A stretch of DNA of 7,294 nucleotides from a virus. Taxonomy: Duplodnaviria; Heunggongvirae; Uroviricota; Caudoviricetes. This document shows positions 1 to 5,032 of this stretch, piece by piece (within the stretch, counting starts at the first letter, position 1; every line of letters begins with the position of its first letter). The notes beneath the pieces are model-generated. The model did no database searches and had not been told where the DNA came from. It saw only the letters and a list, made by a program, of their open reading frames with translations. The DNA is taken from positions 1 through 7,294 of IMG/VR virus record IMGVR_UViG_3300000059_000050. One strand, 5' to 3'. Position numbers and translations under genes: made by a program.

Positions 1-157
1 CGGCAGGAACGACTCCGGACGGCAAACCGCGCATGCTTTTTGGTTCCGGCTCCACCAGCACCCTGCCACCATGGAATACCTGCATGGATTCACGACCTAG
101 CTTAACGATAACCAGCCCGAGTTCCGGTACCAGAACAGGTCGAAGTAATACCCGCAC
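1..157 (-). CDS. Hypothetical protein, 5' part only (runs off the window start); candidate start GTG at 155-157
   Basis: Minus frame is open from 157 to position 1 (VRVLLRPVLVPELGLVIVKLGRESMQVFHGGRVLVEPEPKSMRGLPSGVVPA...). GGAGG sits 4 nt upstream of the GTG, inside the last codons of the 159-431 ORF (stop TAA, 1 nt, GTG), a coupling-type junction. No recognisable motif. A plus-strand frame is also open across this region, so strand assignment is uncertain. Confidence 0.25.
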   Translation of the reverse strand, partial: MRVLLRPVLVPELGLVIVKLGRESMQVFHGGRVLVEPEPKSMRGLPSGVVPA

Positions 158-158
158 G

Positions 159-431
159 TTACCTCCAGATCCGCTGCTGGAATGTGCGCGATGGACGTGG
201 AGGGCGTTCGGAATAAGGAAGCCTGACGGAAATTATCCAGTGTCGGAAATCAAGACTGAGATCCTTTCTGACCTCGCATCCGCGCCTGCGGTAACACTGA
301 ATCAGCCATTCGGCCTGTTCTTCAGTGCATGGATCATGCTGGTACCAGTCAGTTTTAAAGACGTGTGAACGCCGCCCGTGCCGGATGGCAAGATCGGTAT
401 CAGAATTGTGAAATTTGGTTTTGTGCGCCAT
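159..431 (-). CDS. Hypothetical 90-aa Arg/Trp/His-rich protein; position would fit a small DNA-binding or recombination-directionality protein, unverified
   Basis: ATG-initiated ORF whose stop is immediately followed by a GGAGG-preceded GTG of the next minus ORF. Composition is basic and Trp-rich. Weak SD, several rare codons and low purine bias at codon position 1 keep confidence low. Confidence 0.3.
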   Translation of the reverse strand: MAHKTKFHNSDTDLAIRHGRRSHVFKTDWYQHDPCTEEQAEWLIQCYRRRGCEVRKDLSLDFRHWIISVRLPYSERPPRPSRTFQQRIWR

Positions 432-502
432 CTGTTTTCTCTGCTGGCGCAGCAGGTGTCAGGTGTTCAGGCTGACGTGCGAATTGTAAACCAGGATGCT
501 CA

Positions 503-533
503 GAAAAAACAAAACCCGCCGAAGCGGGTTTTC
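503..533 (-). terminator. Rho-independent terminator, bidirectional, ending the antitoxin-Doc transcript
   Basis: Perfect hairpin AAAACCCGC-CGAA-GCGGGTTTT at 511-532. On the minus strand it reads CCCGC-UUCG-GCGGG followed by UUUUGUUUUUU, 14 nt past the Doc stop. On the plus strand it is followed by TTTTCATT. Confidence 0.65.
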
Positions 534-546
534 ATTAGAAGCGCCT

Positions 547-1032
547 TTAGTTTTGCTGTTCTATTTTAAGCTTGATAGTTTCATACAAAACAATAGTTGC
601 GCCTGTTTTACATAATTCCCGGCTGTCATACGCGCGAGACCAATAACACAACCAGTTCTCGAGATCTTCTCGAGTATAGGTTTTGCAGGCCAGTCCCTTT
701 GCCATTTCCACGATTTCATCGCCTGGTGCTGTTAACTCATAGCCATTCAACAACAAGAAGACGTAACCAGCCATCATAGCTGTTCGTTTGTTCGCATTAG
801 CAAACGGATGATTCTGAATCAGACTTTCAATCAATACCGATGCCAGTACAAACATGTCATTAGTCTGTTCATACCATCGAACCATGCTGGGACGGGCCTG
901 AGAAGAACTTAAGTTATCTGGACTCAGGACACCAACGGGCTCATCTGGCGTCTGTAATTCAATTAGGGAACGATTGATTTCAACAAGATCATCAACCGTA
1001 AGGTAATGCACTCCTTCAACAATCTCAGCCAT
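547..1032 (-). CDS. Doc-family (death-on-curing, Fic/Doc fold) type II toxin, about 161 aa
   Basis: Translation contains HPFANANKRTA, matching the Doc signature H-x-F-x-(D/N)-A-N-K-R (P1 Doc has HIFNDANKRTA). Start taken at ATG 1030-1032 (MAEIVEGVHYL...); the track ORF begins at a TTG at 1041. Lies 18 nt downstream of a small ORF, the usual antitoxin-toxin layout. Confidence 0.8.
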   Translation of the reverse strand: MAEIVEGVHYLTVDDLVEINRSLIELQTPDEPVGVLSPDNLSSSQARPSMVRWYEQTNDMFVLASVLIESLIQNHPFANANKRTAMMAGYVFLLLNGYELTAPGDEIVEMAKGLACKTYTREDLENWLCYWSRAYDSRELCKTGATIVLYETIKLKIEQQN

Positions 1033-1050
1033 AGAGCACAATACCCATCA

Positions 1051-1230
1051 TTACACTTTTGAAAGTTCTTCCATGGCTTTCTCATAACGAGAAAAACCGA
1101 AATCAAAAGCATTTTTCACTTGTTCACGATGTGCGCAGTTTTCATCAATCGCTGGGCGAGGGACTGCCACAACGCTTTTATCGCGAGGCGGAATACTCAA
1201 CCGCGTGTGTTTTTTGATTGGGCAGCTCAT
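1051..1230 (-). CDS. Putative antitoxin partner of the Doc toxin, about 59 aa, family unassigned
   Basis: Small ORF directly upstream of the Doc gene on the same strand. ATG at 1228-1230 is preceded by AAGGA (MSCPIKKHTRLSIPPRDKSVVAVPRPAIDE...); the track ORF starts at a TTG 48 nt further upstream. I do not recognise it as Phd/YefM-like; the call rests on position and size. Confidence 0.5.
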   Translation of the reverse strand: MSCPIKKHTRLSIPPRDKSVVAVPRPAIDENCAHREQVKNAFDFGFSRYEKAMEELSKV

Positions 1231-1293
1231 ACTAATGAGTCCTTTTGTTTTCCGATTATTGGCAAAGCCATGCACCAAATTTGATACAAAATA

Positions 1294-1341
1294 GATCTGT
1301 TTGAGATCCTTAGGATAGTCTAATGGTAGCTAAAATTACAA
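1294..1341 (-). promoter_or_regulatory. Candidate promoter and operator of the antitoxin-Doc operon
   Basis: On the minus strand: TTGTAA (plus 1336-1341), 18-nt spacer, TATCCT (plus 1312-1317), then inverted repeat GATCT-gtttg-AGATC (1294-1308) near the predicted start site. Lies between the upstream terminator and the antitoxin start. Read by eye only. Confidence 0.25.
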
Positions 1342-1355
1342 CCTCATAATGCGAC

Positions 1356-1376
1356 GAAAAACCCGCCGAAGCGGGT
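1356..1376 (-). terminator. Rho-independent terminator downstream of hok
   Basis: Minus-strand RNA reads AACCCGC-UUCG-GCGGGUU followed by UUUUUCG. The 19-nt core AAAACCCGCCGAAGCGGGTT is identical to the hairpin at 511-531. Confidence 0.55.
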
Positions 1377-1447
1377 TAAGTGCGGGTGCGTTGAGGATGC
1401 CTGACACATCAGAGGTGGCGAGGGATTTCTCCCTCGCCTGGTCACTC

Positions 1448-1603
1448 TTACTTCTCAGATTCGTAGTCTACGAAGACAGCGACCTCCGTCTGGCCGGTTC
1501 GGATTCGTACCTCGCAGAGGTCTTTCCTCGTTACCAGTGCCGTCACTATGACGGTTAAACAGATGACGATCAGGGCGATTAACATCGCCTTTTGCTGCTT
1601 CAT
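1448..1603 (-). CDS. hok: Hok/Gef-family type I membrane toxin, 51 aa
   Basis: MKQQKAMLIALIVICLTVIVTALVTRKDLCEVRIRTGQTEVAVFVDYESEK is near-identical in pattern to chromosomal HokD/RelF-type Hok peptides as I recall them (TM helix, then RKxLCEVRxxxGxxEVAxF). ATG at 1601-1603 is preceded by AAGGAGAAG. The track ORF 1448..1660 is an in-frame extension from an ATG 57 nt upstream. Confidence 0.9.
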   Translation of the reverse strand: MKQQKAMLIALIVICLTVIVTALVTRKDLCEVRIRTGQTEVAVFVDYESEK

Positions 1604-2104
1604 AGCCTGCTTCTCCTTGACCTTTCGGTCCGTAAGAGGCAATCTATATGTGACGAGCATATAGGGGCCTCACTTCGATTTATAGTCGGGTGGGGCTTTT
1701 CTCTATCTGCCTTGCAGTGGCATGCCCGAGACAGATAGCCTCAAGCACCCGCAGCAATTCTAACTATCCAATACATCACTGCCAACACTTTAAACTCTCG
1801 CCCTTTAAAACAAGAACAAAATTCAACCAATCAGCATTGGACGCATACTCATATCCTAGAGAAAACGACTCTTTCTGTACTATCTACATCCATTTGATTT
1901 ATAAGCATTTGCCGCTTGCCATAGCCGCACAATGACAGTTTGCCATTTGATGTCAATAGATAAAAACGATCATTTTCAATGAGTTACATACTTGCAAGGC
2001 GTTGCACATCAGGCCCGATTGCATCAGTATCAAAAGATAACAGATGGTGCATTACTGCCACCTCGCCTTAATGTTCCAGAACTATTCAACTTGAGGAATT
2101 TTCA
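1604..2104. promoter_or_regulatory. AT-rich divergent intergenic region: expected hok leader and antisense control region, plus the promoter of the KilA-N gene
   Basis: About 500 bp with no convincing ORF and visibly lower GC than the flanks. Hok loci are known to carry long structured leaders and a short antisense RNA; here these are inferred from position, not seen. Several -35/-10-like hexamers are present but none could be assigned with confidence. Confidence 0.35.
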
Positions 2105-2878
2105 ATGACATCCTTTCAATTATCTTTGATTTCTCGTGAAATTGACGGCGAAATAATACATTTACGTGCCAAAGATGGTTACATAAACGCCACATCAATG
2201 TGTAGAACTGCGGGCAAACTGCTCTCTGATTACACTAGACTCAAAACCACTCAAGAGTTTTTTGACGAATTATCACGCGATATGGGAATTCCCATATCGG
2301 AGTTAATTCAATCATTTAAAGGTGGAAGACCTGAAAACCAAGGGACGTGGGTGCATCCTGATATCGCTATTAATCTGGCACAGTGGCTATCGCCCAAATT
2401 TGCAGTCCAAGTTTCAAGATGGGTTCGTGAATGGATGTCAGGGGAAAGAACTACAGCAGAAATGCCTGTACATTTAAAACGGTACATGGTTAATCGTGGT
2501 AGAATTCCTCACACGCACTTTTCTATTCTTAATGAACTGACATTCAACTTGGTTGCACCTCTCGAACAAGCAGGGTACACACTCCCAGAAAAAATGGTTC
2601 CTGACATTTCACAAGGAAGAGTATTTTCACAATGGTTAAGAGATAATAGAAACGTAGAACCCAAAACATTCCCTACCTATGACCATGAATATCCCGATGG
2701 TCGCGTATACCCAGCAAGGCTGTACCCAAATGAATATTTAGCAGATTTCAAAGAACATTTTAACAATATTTGGTTGCCACAATATGCCCCGAAATACTTC
2801 GCTGACCGGGACAAAAAGGCTCTCGCCTTGATTGAAAAAATTATGCTACCTAACCTCGATGGCAATGAACAGTTCTAA
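2105..2878 (+). CDS. KilA-N domain protein (APSES-type DNA-binding N-terminal domain) with an unrecognised C-terminal domain, 257 aa
   Basis: N-terminal about 110 aa (INATSMCRTAGK...GTWVHPDIAINLAQWLSPKFAVQVSRWVREW) matches the KilA-N pattern found in P1 KilA and Bro-N proteins. SD GAGGAA lies 6 nt before the ATG. It is the only well-supported plus-strand gene, is AT-rich, and is followed by a strong terminator. Confidence 0.8.
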   Translation: MTSFQLSLISREIDGEIIHLRAKDGYINATSMCRTAGKLLSDYTRLKTTQEFFDELSRDMGIPISELIQSFKGGRPENQGTWVHPDIAINLAQWLSPKFAVQVSRWVREWMSGERTTAEMPVHLKRYMVNRGRIPHTHFSILNELTFNLVAPLEQAGYTLPEKMVPDISQGRVFSQWLRDNRNVEPKTFPTYDHEYPDGRVYPARLYPNEYLADFKEHFNNIWLPQYAPKYFADRDKKALALIEKIMLPNLDGNEQF

Positions 2879-3577: not shown

Positions 3578-4000
3578 TCATTCCTTAACCTGCAACTGCT
3601 TCTTAACCAGTTTACGTAGATGTGCCACAGCCATAGAAAGAGTTTCCACCGCTCGTTTATCCAGCTGTGGGGACAGAGACACCAGTTCGTTTATTGCGAT
3701 CTCAATGCCCTGTGCCTGCACTGTGGGAGCTGGCGGCACACGATACAGCGGAATTACACGACGCGGGTCTGCGTATTTATCTGGAGGACAAGGTAATAAA
3801 TAACCTAAACCAATTTGCTCAACATCTCGCAGTTCCTCGTCATCAGTCCATGCAACTGGTTCTGCTTCCAGCGATGCCAGCGCGATACGAAACACATTGG
3901 CAAGCAGGCTGCTTGAAGATTGGTTATCGTGCGCCGGGTCGCTCAGGAAACCAGTGATGAATGATTTAATTTCCGCGTTTTCTCTGGTAGTAGTGGTCAT
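3578..4000 (-). CDS. Prophage early-region protein of unknown function, 140 aa; paralog of the 2999-3574 product
   Basis: Start ATG overlaps the stop of the upstream gene (ATGA). Motifs RIALASLEAEPVAW and RVIPLYRVPPAPTV. Confidence 0.7.
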   Translation of the reverse strand: MTTTTRENAEIKSFITGFLSDPAHDNQSSSSLLANVFRIALASLEAEPVAWTDDEELRDVEQIGLGYLLPCPPDKYADPRRVIPLYRVPPAPTVQAQGIEIAINELVSLSPQLDKRAVETLSMAVAHLRKLVKKQLQVKE

Positions 4001-4206
4001 TTGTTAATCCTCAAAACTTTATGCCCGGGCGCAAAAGCACGTGTTTTGTCTTTACTTATTCGCCACCCGTCTTTACGGGCCTCTTTTGCACAACCAGACC
4101 ATGACGTACCGATATACTCACCGAAGTCTGGCACTGGATATACACCTTCCGTACACTGGCGGCAGTCACAATAGAGATGCATGGTGTAACTTGCGGCAAT
4201 AGCCAT
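3997..4206 (-). CDS. Small Cys-rich protein (C-x-C-x2-C ... C), putative zinc-binding, 69 aa; tandem paralog copy 1
   Basis: AAGGAGA lies 5 nt before the ATG. Near-identical to the 4817-5032 product (MxIAASYTMHLYCDCRQCT...GEYIGTSW.GCAKEARKDGWRIS.DKTRAFAPGHK). Four conserved Cys. Confidence 0.75.
   Translation of the reverse strand: MAIAASYTMHLYCDCRQCTEGVYPVPDFGEYIGTSWSGCAKEARKDGWRISKDKTRAFAPGHKVLRINK
4011..4206. repeat. Diverged direct repeat, copy 1 (about 196 bp; roughly 85-90% identical to 4837-5032 by eye)
   Basis: Aligned by eye without gaps to 4837-5032. Covers almost the whole Cys-rich gene; similarity continues into the upstream SD region. Confidence 0.8.
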
Positions 4207-4816: not shown

Positions 4817-5032
4817 TCACTCTCCTTTGTTGCTTCTCAAAATTTTATGCCCTGGCGCAAAAGCACGCGTTTTGTCGACGCTTATTCGCCACCCATCTTT
4901 ACGTGCCTCTTTTGCACAGCCAGCCCATGACGTACCGATATACTCACCAAAATCTGGCGACTGATATTTGCCATCCGTACACTGGCGGCAATCACAATAG
5001 AGATGCATGGTGTAACTTGCGGCAATACTCAT
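4817..5032 (-). CDS. Small Cys-rich protein, putative zinc-binding, 71 aa; tandem paralog copy 2
   Basis: GGAGG lies 4 nt before the ATG, which directly follows the TGA of the 119-aa gene. Same four-Cys pattern as the 3997-4206 product. Confidence 0.75.
   Translation of the reverse strand: MSIAASYTMHLYCDCRQCTDGKYQSPDFGEYIGTSWAGCAKEARKDGWRISVDKTRAFAPGHKILRSNKGE
4837..5032. repeat. Diverged direct repeat, copy 2
   Basis: Partner of 4011-4206, same orientation, 826 bp apart. Confidence 0.8.

What the first reader, a model, noticed from the sequence alone, without database searches (positions are those of the whole stretch)
511..1376. Identical terminator hairpins bracket the Doc module, suggesting cassette insertion
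The 19-nt core AAAACCCGCCGAAGCGGGTT occurs identically at 511-531 and 1357-1376, once just downstream of Doc and once just upstream of the antitoxin candidate. A duplicated terminator on both sides of a two-gene module suggests the module was inserted by recombination at or next to a pre-existing terminator.
Basis: partly seen in the sequence, partly recalled or inferred. Interest (0 to 1): 0.5.

Follow-up and report, generated by a model that had tools for sequence, protein, structure and literature searches.

The report
Doc toxin cassette between twin terminators
Two identical 20-base terminator hairpins flank a Doc toxin-antitoxin cassette that some lambdoid prophages carry just after their hok/sok killer gene; the hairpin is a very common terminator and marks the recombination joint, so this is an ordinary phage add-on gene ("moron") and not a special insertion scar.

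Summary
AAAACCCGCCGAAGCGGGTT occurs exactly twice, at 511-530 and 1358-1377 (20 nt, not 19). On the minus strand, copy 2 is the terminal hairpin of a hok/sok mRNA. Copy 1 is the terminator of a two-gene Doc cassette.

Single-hairpin "empty sites" exist. In 2,138 of 5,426 complete E. coli genomes, the left flank of copy 1 and the right flank of copy 2 meet across one hairpin. 125 genomes carry the cassette. Matched occupied and empty forms occur in three different left-flank backgrounds.

The hairpin itself is generic. Every E. coli genome has 7-19 matches, one of them the rplM-rpsI terminator. It also occurs in more than 120 stretches from unrelated bacteria. Other cassettes in the same slot (RmrTA, HTH plus M78 peptidase) also end in it, and relatives of one of them keep it in hok-free contexts.

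So the two copies are better read as the native terminators of two neighbouring add-on genes ("morons") than as a duplication made by insertion. The cassette is 99.3% identical to that of E. coli GB089, but the left flank is only about 85% identical. Identity changes sharply at copy 1, which points to recombination at the hairpin.

Verdict: a known kind of feature, of modest interest.

The parts
511..530 (-). Hairpin copy 1. Intrinsic terminator of the Doc cassette: stem AACCCGC/GCGGGUU, UUCG loop, tail UUUUGUUUUUU running to about 501. It is also the sharp left breakpoint of the cassette.
   Evidence: passes the terminator scan on the minus strand at 532-511; differences from L130 cluster up to 502, then only 6-7 across the cassette.
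547..1032 (-). Doc (death-on-curing) toxin, 161 aa, with the Fic/Doc motif HPFANANKR.
   Evidence: Pfam Fic 7e-12. NCBIfam TIGR01550 DOC_P1 127.8 bits against a cutoff of 38.65. PDB Doc chains 9vzc and 3k33. PGAP calls the homologue a 'type II TA death-on-curing family toxin'.
1051..1230 (-). Candidate antitoxin, 59 aa, 18 nt upstream of doc. Not a recognisable Phd.
   Evidence: ORF. The homologue is annotated as a 180-nt hypothetical protein in every Doc locus. It co-occurs with Doc in all 80 viral loci. No Pfam, NCBIfam or PADLOC hit.
1312..1341 (-). Putative sigma-70 promoter of the cassette: -35 TTGTAA at 1341-1336, 18-nt spacer, -10 TATCCT at 1317-1312.
   Evidence: Read from the alignment of upstream-region variants. 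Several positions within it (ATTA, T, CT) are invariant across variants. It scores 8 of 12 and falls below the scan tool's threshold. Inferred, not shown.
1358..1377 (-). Hairpin copy 2. Terminal hairpin (terminator) of the hok mRNA, here with a shortened U tract (UUUUU then CGUCGC).
   Evidence: terminal hairpin of the folded 398-nt hok mRNA. It is present after hok in 120 viral loci whatever follows.
1384..1396 (-). fbi-like 3' element of the hok mRNA (CCUCAACGCACCC). It pairs with the 5' end GGGUGCUUGAGG at 1750-1739.
   Evidence: The minimum-free-energy fold closes the 5' and 3' ends; z = -6.65 with 0 of 100 shuffles as good.
1448..1603 (-). hok-family toxin CDS, 51 aa, HokD-like.
   Evidence: Pfam HOK_GEF 1e-22. 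NCBIfam Hok family. Homologues are annotated hokD.
1601..1750 (-). hok/sok regulatory leader, matched by the Rfam sok model.
   Evidence: RF01794, 104.8 bits against a gathering score of 59, E = 1e-23.
531..1377 (-). The 847-bp unit (827-bp cargo plus one hairpin) that is present here and absent from empty sites. It can equally be placed at 511-1357.
   Evidence: (two-piece matches spanning about 936 bp). GC is 0.40-0.46 against 0.53-0.56 in the flanks.
159..431 (-). 90-aa hypothetical ORF. It is the first gene of the conserved downstream block (90-aa ORF, DUF968/ydfU, rusA, Q), which the terminators insulate.
   Evidence: annotation of homologous loci.

Best explanation
The window is the early-right (nin-type) region of a lambdoid, Qin-like prophage. 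On the minus strand the order is: BstA-like gene (opposite strand), hok/sok, hairpin 2, promoter, antitoxin, doc, hairpin 1, 90-aa ORF, ydfU (DUF968), then rusA and Q beyond the window.

hok/sok and the Doc pair are two independent add-on transcription units ('morons'). Each ends in its own intrinsic terminator. Both terminators happen to be the same widespread hairpin, ACCCGC-UUCG-GCGGGU followed by a U tract.

Function: the hairpins end the hok mRNA and the phd-like/doc mRNA. In a lysogen this keeps those constitutive transcripts from reading into ydfU-rusA-Q.

Evolution: the gap between the hok terminator and the next block is a hotspot that holds different toxin-antitoxin and defence cassettes. 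Because resident and incoming units share the roughly 20-26 bp hairpin and tract, recombination uses it as a joint. The Doc cassette is gained, lost or moved between prophage backgrounds with its left crossover exactly at hairpin 1. The right crossover lies in or near the conserved hok segment. Deletion between the two direct copies would regenerate the single-hairpin empty site.

Shown: the repeat, the folds, the gene identities, the empty and occupied sites, the breakpoints, and how common the hairpin is. Inferred: that termination actually occurs, the insulation role, and the recombination pathway (short-homology exchange, for example by Red or RecT-type recombinases).
For: - Repeat and hairpin folds.
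- hok identity and mRNA architecture, with copy 2 as the terminal hairpin just after an fbi-like element.
- Doc identity.
- Empty sites: L008, L009 and L002 join the left flank of copy 1 to the right flank of copy 2 over one hairpin. This junction is in 2,138 of 5,426 genomes.
- The cassette is in 125 genomes and is contiguous with hok in 120 of them. Matches to hok alone start at window 1357-1359.
- At least five different left flanks abut hairpin 1. Matching empty forms exist for three of them: ydfU, DUF1367 (L251, L287) and HTH-RelE (L004 against L134).
- Identity step: the cassette is 99.2-99.3% identical to L001 and L130, while the 300 nt to its left are 84-86% identical. Differences run up to position 502 and then stop. 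L005 and L133 have a 100% identical cassette and 99.8% identical hok but unrelated left flanks.
- Other cassettes sit in the same slot and are each followed by a second hairpin: HTH plus Peptidase_M78, RmrT/RmrA, and two further pairs of an unknown protein with an XRE-M78 protein.
- The hairpin belongs to the cassette: relatives of the HTH-M78 cassette at 74-85% nucleotide identity in non-hok contexts are homologous up to, and end at, the same hairpin. Of 33 diverged, hok-less Doc relatives, 16 have the exact 14-mer downstream of doc and 5 have a one-base variant. Salmonella phage SW-37 has it too.
- The hairpin is generic.
- Moron criteria: lower GC, and its own terminator and a candidate promoter, matching the definition in PMC3594210.
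- Feasibility of short-homology exchange: the minimal efficient pairing segment is 23-27 bp for Red-beta (PMC3945230).
Against: - No transcript data, so termination and the promoter are predictions. The promoter scores only 8 of 12, and copy 2 fails the terminator scan.
- The right boundary of the recently shared segment is not sharp at copy 2. There are about 6 differences in 1378-1600, then heavy divergence from about 1650. Copy 2 is therefore not shown to be a crossover point.
- The exact repeat is 20 bp, at or below the published minimal pairing lengths.
- In one group of Doc relatives (L186 type) doc has a different terminator of its own and the UUCG hairpin lies 25 nt further on. In that group the hairpin may belong to the site and not to the cassette.
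- How the first hok-T-Doc-T arrangement arose is unresolved. L155-type loci have Doc-T-ydfU without hok, so either unit could have arrived second.
Confidence: 0.75

Rival explanations
1. True duplication on insertion. The site had one terminator, and the insertion event itself copied it, as a long target-site duplication or by integration of a circular cargo-plus-hairpin molecule through a hairpin-by-hairpin crossover. On this view the two copies share one origin.
For: The structure is exactly what a single crossover of a circle would give. The tail after the distal hairpin matches the background, and the tail after the proximal hairpin is specific to the cassette. Five unrelated cassettes show the same T-cargo-T layout at this slot. 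One cassette is bracketed by the hairpin even where there is no hok (L351).
Against: The distal hairpin is conserved as the 3' end of diverged cassette relatives in unrelated contexts, so it travels with the cargo and is not made on arrival. The cassette has no transposase, integrase or terminal inverted repeats. A 20-bp target duplication is outside the usual range for transposition (general knowledge). Homology between HTH-M78 cassette relatives starts 40-170 nt after the upstream hairpin, not at it.
Confidence: 0.12
2. Coincidence plus selection. The two terminators are independent and play no part in recombination. Junctions fall at the hairpin only because recombinants that keep whole transcription units survive, and because the hairpin is the only conserved sequence in the spacer.
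For: The hairpin is generic. Stems of the ACCCGC/GCGGGT type with other loops are also frequent in these loci. Morons are expected to carry terminators (PMC3594210).
Against: In three backgrounds the occupied and empty forms differ by exactly cargo plus one hairpin. The sequence immediately after the U tract switches with the background. The identity step from 99.3% to about 85% falls within 10 nt of hairpin 1. Random illegitimate joins would leave scattered breakpoints and spacer remnants, and none were seen.
Confidence: 0.15
3. Deletion instead of insertion. The hok-T-Doc-T arrangement is older, and the single-hairpin sites arose repeatedly by deletion between the two 20-bp direct repeats.
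For: Direct repeats 847 bp apart are a classical substrate for RecA-independent deletion (general knowledge). The product would be indistinguishable from the observed empty site.
Against: Empty sites outnumber occupied ones by about 17 to 1 (2,138 against 125 genomes) and are spread over many hok alleles. The cassette has lower GC than both flanks. It is far less diverged than its flanks, which indicates recent arrival. Deletion probably does occur, but it cannot be the main source of empty sites.
Confidence: 0.1
4. An integron-like cassette system in which the hairpin acts as an attC-type site for a site-specific recombinase.
For: The layout resembles cassettes separated by hairpins, and L356 has three hairpins in a row.
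Against: The hairpin is a 14-nt perfect stem-loop. It lacks the 57-141 bp attC architecture with R and L boxes and extrahelical bases (general knowledge of integrons). The cassettes carry their own promoters. The ORFs scanned showed no integrase domain. The same hairpin terminates core operons such as rplM-rpsI.
Confidence: 0.02

Closest known systems
Phage morons (HK97/HK022 concept; reviewed in 'The moron comes of age', PMC3594210)
   Same: An extra transcription unit present in some related prophages and absent from others. It has its own terminator, a candidate promoter of its own, and GC content unlike its neighbours. It sits between conserved phage genes.
   Different: Here the terminator sequence is identical to that of the neighbouring unit, and it coincides with the recombination breakpoint. 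That is not part of the moron definition.
P1 phd-doc type II toxin-antitoxin module
   Same: The toxin belongs to the Doc subfamily of Fic proteins, with the HxFx(D/N)(A/G)NKR motif (TIGR01550; PDB Doc chains). A small upstream gene sits in the antitoxin position.
   Different: The upstream 59-aa protein has no detectable Phd/YefM domain. The module is on chromosomal lambdoid prophages, not a P1-type plasmid prophage, and no plasmid carries it. Toxin activity and neutralisation are untested.
[quoted passage not shown]
   Same: Hok-family CDS, a match to the sok model, 5'-3' (tac/fbi-like) pairing of the mRNA, and a terminal hairpin. The genomic position matches K-12 Qin, where the order is ydfU-rem-hokD (H29).
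   Different: In K-12 the gene after the hokD terminator is rem. Here it is the Doc cassette, which shortens the U tract of the hok terminator.
Defence and toxin-antitoxin hotspots of temperate phages (P2/P4 hotspots, PMC9122126; PMC13586616)
   Same: A fixed slot between conserved phage genes holds interchangeable toxin-antitoxin and defence cargo: Doc, RmrTA, HTH-M78 pairs, RelE/ParE-HTH and rem.
   Different: This is a different phage group (lambdoid, nin-type region). The slot is delimited on the cargo side by a specific terminator hairpin. PMC13586616 contains none of the words 'terminator', 'hairpin' or 'stem-loop'.
Integron gene cassettes with attC sites
   Same: Cargo units separated by short hairpin-forming repeats, with presence or absence exactly at the repeat.
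   Different: There is no attC architecture, no integrase and no promoterless cassettes, and the repeat is an ordinary terminator. It is not a member.

Membership tests
Intrinsic (Rho-independent) terminator | GC-rich stem-loop in the transcript | tested here: met
   Both copies form a 7-9 bp stem with a C(UUCG)G loop on the minus strand.
Intrinsic (Rho-independent) terminator | U-rich tract immediately 3' of the stem | tested here: met
   Copy 1 has UUUUGUUUUUU and passes the scan. Copy 2 has only UUUUU then CGUCGC and fails the scan rule, so the feature is met for copy 1 and marginal for copy 2.
Intrinsic (Rho-independent) terminator | Transcripts actually end there | not testable with these tools
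   No RNA 3'-end data are available. Indirect support: the identical hairpin lies 33 nt after rpsI at the end of the rplM-rpsI operon.
Phage moron | Present in some closely related phages and absent from others at the same position | tested here: met
   Empty and occupied sites.
Phage moron | Own promoter and own terminator | tested here: inconclusive
   The terminator is met. The promoter is only a conserved 8-of-12 match and was not called by the scan.
Phage moron | Base composition unlike its neighbours | tested here: met
   GC is 0.40-0.46 inside the cassette against 0.53-0.56 in the flanks.
Doc/Fic type II toxin-antitoxin | Toxin with a Fic fold and the Doc-type motif HxFx(D/N)(A/G)NKR | tested here: met
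   HPFANANKR is in the sequence. TIGR01550 scores 127.8 bits. PDB Doc chains match.
Doc/Fic type II toxin-antitoxin | Cognate Phd-type antitoxin encoded immediately upstream | tested here: inconclusive
   A conserved 59-aa upstream ORF always accompanies doc but matches no Phd/YefM or other family.
[quoted passage not shown] | Hok-family peptide, sok region, and 5'-3' fold-back of the mRNA ending in a terminator hairpin | tested here: met
Integron cassette / attC | attC site of about 57-141 bp with paired R/L boxes, and a linked IntI integrase | tested here: not met
   The repeat is a 14-nt perfect hairpin plus A and T tracts. No ORF in the window looks like an integrase.
Transposable element with target-site duplication | Terminal inverted repeats and/or a transposase inside the inserted unit, with a short duplication of the target | tested here: not met
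   There are no inverted repeats at the cassette ends other than the hairpin itself. The cargo encodes only the antitoxin candidate and Doc.

The most novel reading that the evidence does not exclude
The ACCCGC-UUCG-GCGGGU terminator may be more than a common terminator. It could work as a portable recombination adaptor for accessory cassettes of enterobacterial temperate phages. Units that end in it can be joined, swapped or deleted at any resident copy by short-homology recombination. That would explain why unrelated toxin-antitoxin and defence cassettes (Doc, RmrTA, HTH-M78 pairs) share it, why they pile up directly after the hok terminator, and why hairpin arrays occur. It would amount to a recombinase-independent, terminator-based cassette system that builds a defence hotspot in lambdoid prophages.
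Probability: 0.3. Interest if true: 0.55.

Novelty: new member of a known kind. Interest (0 to 1): 0.3.

Why it matters
The locus shows, base for base, how a toxin-antitoxin add-on gene enters and leaves a lambdoid prophage. The joint is a 20-bp terminator shared by neighbouring units. The result also warns that an identical flanking hairpin is not proof of an insertion scar when that hairpin is one of the commonest terminators in the gene pool.

If the hairpin really is used preferentially as a crossover point, that would give a simple, testable mechanism for how defence and toxin-antitoxin hotspots assemble in temperate phages without a dedicated recombinase. It would also give a handle for predicting where new cargo sits.

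Practically, the gap between the hok terminator and ydfU is a place to mine for toxin-antitoxin and anti-phage cassettes.

Tried and rejected
- Chance repeat: rejected (0 of 200 shuffles).
- Larger duplicated unit: rejected. Identity stops at the 20-mer.
- Transposon or IS origin: rejected. No terminal repeats or transposase. The IS66 and IS3 elements seen near some loci are unrelated neighbours.
- Integron attC: rejected (see the membership test).
- Known structured RNA: the sub-threshold Rfam matches to rsmX, isrK and istR (22.6-30.2 bits, all below gathering scores) are driven by the terminator hairpin alone.
- Plasmid or P1 origin of the cassette: no plasmid match beyond a 69% hit in a Proteus record filed under plasmids, and no close match in sequenced phages.
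- Hairpin 2 as a second sharp breakpoint: not supported. Identity decays gradually through hok and collapses only from about 1650.
- Share of this hairpin among all phage terminators: the estimate from the fetched loci is biased because those loci were selected for the hairpin, so I do not use it.
- Literature: searches for this hairpin or for terminator-bounded cassettes in lambdoid phages found only the general moron and hotspot papers.
- Source genome: not identified. The best complete E. coli match to window 1-2100 is 92.8% over 84%.
Full report
**Observation**

The 20-mer AAAACCCGCCGAAGCGGGTT occurs exactly twice in the 7,294-base window, at 511-530 and 1358-1377 on the + strand. There is no further match with up to three mismatches, and none of 200 shuffles gave two matches. 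Identity stops at the 20-mer.

On the minus strand, which is the coding strand here, both copies fold into a GC stem closed by a C(UUCG)G tetraloop. Copy 1 is followed by UUUUGUUUUUU and is called by the terminator scan. Copy 2 is followed only by UUUUU then CGUCGC and is not called.

**What lies around it**

Reading the minus strand, the features are:
- 1750-1601: a match to the Rfam sok model (104.8 bits).
- 1603-1448: a Hok-family CDS (Pfam 1e-22; NCBIfam).
- 1396-1384: the element CCUCAACGCACCC.
- 1377-1358: hairpin 2.
- 1230-1051: a 59-aa ORF.
- 1032-547: a Doc-subfamily Fic toxin with the motif HPFANANKR.
- 530-511: hairpin 1.
- 431-159: a 90-aa ORF, followed by the start of a DUF968 (ydfU) gene.

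Folding 1750-1353 as one RNA pairs the 5' end GGGUGCUUGAGG with the 1396-1384 element and leaves hairpin 2 as the terminal stem-loop (z = -6.65). That is the textbook hok mRNA layout. Copy 2 is therefore the hok terminator and copy 1 is the terminator of the Doc pair.

Annotated homologous loci show the wider context: a lambdoid, Qin-like prophage with the order DUF1627, DUF977..., hokD, [variable], 90-aa ORF, DUF968, RusA, antiterminator Q.

**Empty sites exist**

In L008, L009 (O157:H7) and L002, the left flank of copy 1 and the right flank of copy 2 are contiguous across a single hairpin.
- A 140-nt probe across that junction is at least 80% covered in 2,138 of 5,426 complete E. coli genomes.
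- The 827-bp cargo is present in 125 genomes, always on the chromosome.
- In 120 of these it is contiguous with hok. Matches to hok alone begin at window 1357-1359, that is, at copy 2.

The left flank beyond hairpin 1 varies. I found at least five types: ydfU, DUF1367, a flank shared by L131 and L132 (next to an IS66 element in L131), one further type, and an HTH-RelE/ParE cassette in O104:H4. Homology breaks exactly at the hairpin in each. Three of these backgrounds also have the matching empty form: ydfU, DUF1367 (L251, L287) and HTH-RelE (L004 against L134).

**The hairpin is generic**

- The exact 20-mer is found in more than 120 stretches from Pseudomonas, Burkholderiales, Serratia, Saccharibacteria and others.
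- A 30-nt hairpin probe matches 7-19 places (median 12) in every one of 5,426 E. coli genomes.
- The best match is a 26-nt exact copy 33 nt after rpsI, the terminator of the rplM-rpsI operon.
- The same probe matches 1,997 phage records, including virulent phages.

It does refute the idea that identity alone marks a duplication. It does not remove the empty-site evidence.

**Whose hairpin is it?**

In 120 viral contigs that hold hok plus its terminator, the terminator is followed directly by:
- the ydfU flank in 50;
- rem in about 40;
- the Doc cassette in 6;
- a DUF1367-type flank in 4;
- other sequences in the rest.

Every cargo that lies between the hok terminator and the ydfU flank is followed by a second copy of the hairpin. 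This holds for Doc, for an HTH plus Peptidase_M78 pair, and for two pairs of an unknown protein with an XRE-M78 protein. An RmrT/RmrA defence pair ahead of the rem flank is also followed by a second copy.

Relatives of the HTH-M78 cassette in hok-free contexts, at 74-85% nucleotide identity, are homologous from 40-170 nt after the upstream terminator to exactly the distal hairpin. The hairpin is conserved there while the adjacent bases have diverged.

For Doc, I looked at 33 diverged, hok-less relatives.
- 16 have the exact 14-mer downstream of doc.
- 5 have a one-base variant, such as the loops UACG and UCCG.
- 12 have no copy within one mismatch. Those I inspected have unrelated terminators.
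- In the L186 group, however, doc has another terminator first and the hairpin comes 25 nt later.

Salmonella phage SW-37 also carries the hairpin after a decayed doc, with no hok. Three viral loci carry Doc-hairpin-ydfU with no hok at all.

The simplest reading is that the distal hairpin is the cassette's own terminator and the proximal one is hok's.

**Is the hairpin a crossover point?**

The window's cassette is 99.2-99.3% identical to those of E. coli TW10690 and GB089 (L001, L130). The 300 nt to its left are only 84-86% identical. Base-by-base differences run up to position 502, then drop to 6-7 over the 827-nt cargo.

To the right, identity stays fairly high through the hok CDS, with about 6 differences in 1378-1600. 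It collapses only from about 1650.

L005 and L133 share a 100% identical cassette and 99.8% identical hok but have unrelated left flanks.

So hairpin 1 has repeatedly been the left crossover. The right crossover lies in or beyond hok, and hairpin 2 is not shown to be one. The shared hairpin plus tracts is about 20-26 bp, close to the 23-27 bp minimal pairing segment reported for Red-beta (PMC3945230). This makes short-homology exchange plausible but does not prove it.

**Function (inferred)**

The cassette meets the moron criteria. It is present or absent between relatives, has lower GC (0.40-0.46 against 0.53-0.56), has its own terminator, and has a conserved candidate promoter. That promoter is -35 TTGTAA at 1341-1336 and -10 TATCCT at 1317-1312, below the scan threshold. 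These match the definition in PMC3594210.

In a lysogen the two hairpins would end the hok and antitoxin-doc transcripts before the 90-aa ORF, ydfU, rusA and Q. During lytic growth, antiterminated transcription would read through. That last point rests on established knowledge of lambdoid nin-region terminators and was not tested here.

Insertion of the cassette shortens the U tract of the hok terminator. In several Doc-carrying lineages the proximal hairpin has decayed while the distal one is intact.

**Comparison and verdict**

The feature is a moron-type toxin-antitoxin cassette in a prophage hotspot, bounded by a very common terminator. It is not an integron cassette, since it has no attC architecture and no integrase. 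It is not a transposon, since it has no terminal repeats and no transposase.

I found no paper that describes this hairpin as a junction. PMC13586616, on phage defence hotspots, contains none of the words 'terminator', 'hairpin' or 'stem-loop'.

Cassette insertion at a terminator is supported; a duplicated terminator as an insertion scar is not.

The most novel reading still open is that this terminator serves as a general recombination adaptor for phage accessory cassettes. I put that at about 0.3.

Noticed in passing
window 2105-2878 (+), with the terminator-like hairpin at 2884-2908: The KilA-N protein (Pfam 4e-27) also matches the PADLOC BstA model (E = 6e-21, residues 119-238). It looks like a BstA-type abortive-infection gene, on the opposite strand next to hok/sok and Doc, so three defence or toxin-antitoxin units sit side by side.
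   Followed up: partly
window 1051-1230 (-): The 59-aa ORF upstream of doc always accompanies Doc in 80 viral loci but has no Pfam, NCBIfam or PADLOC match. If it is the antitoxin, it is not a recognisable Phd/YefM.
   Followed up: partly
L222 (about 1.8 kb after the hok terminator); also L256, L296 and L234: Other cargo in the same slot: an RmrT/RmrA defence pair (PADLOC 5e-25 and 6e-105), two pairs of an unknown protein with an XRE-HTH-Peptidase_M78 protein, and an HTH plus M78 pair. Each is followed by a second copy of the hairpin and then the normal downstream flank.
   Followed up: partly
L132 3326-3343; L139, L165 and L171 (upstream of the antitoxin): In several Doc-carrying lineages the hok-proximal hairpin has picked up stem mutations (for example AAACCGCCGAAGTAGGTT) while the distal copy is intact. 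This may reflect relaxed selection once a second terminator lies downstream.
   Followed up: no
L356 3440, 4224 and 4976: Three exact copies of the hairpin about 750-780 nt apart, the first and third preceded by closely similar sequence and the second only partly so. They look like tandem short genes that each end in the same terminator.
   Followed up: no
window 3997-4206 and 4823-5032 (-): A 210-nt direct repeat at 87% identity. It corresponds to two paralogous Cys-rich small ORFs of 69 and 71 aa.
   Followed up: no
window 1231-1357 (-) and the equivalent region in L139 and L155: The region between hairpin 2 and the antitoxin start exists in at least three diverged variants, while the coding part is conserved. 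Many E. coli hits cover only cargo positions 1-700. Several positions in the region (ATTA, T, CT) are invariant across the variants and probably belong to the promoter or operator.
   Followed up: partly
window 378-569 (+): In related genomes PGAP annotates the homologue of this 63-aa ORF as a hypothetical protein. The ORF runs straight through hairpin 1 on the non-coding strand and is probably a spurious gene call.
   Followed up: no
L155, L158 and L168 (about 330 nt upstream of the antitoxin): The Doc cassette occurs without hok. It sits directly after a homologue of the window's 2999-3574 gene region and a different terminator (GATCCCG...CGGGATC). Relative to these loci, the window has an extra BstA-like gene plus hok/sok block.
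   Followed up: partly
whole window: The best complete E. coli match to window 1-2100 is only 92.8% identical over 84%. The source is therefore not one of the 5,426 RefSeq complete E. coli genomes; I did not identify it.
   Followed up: no
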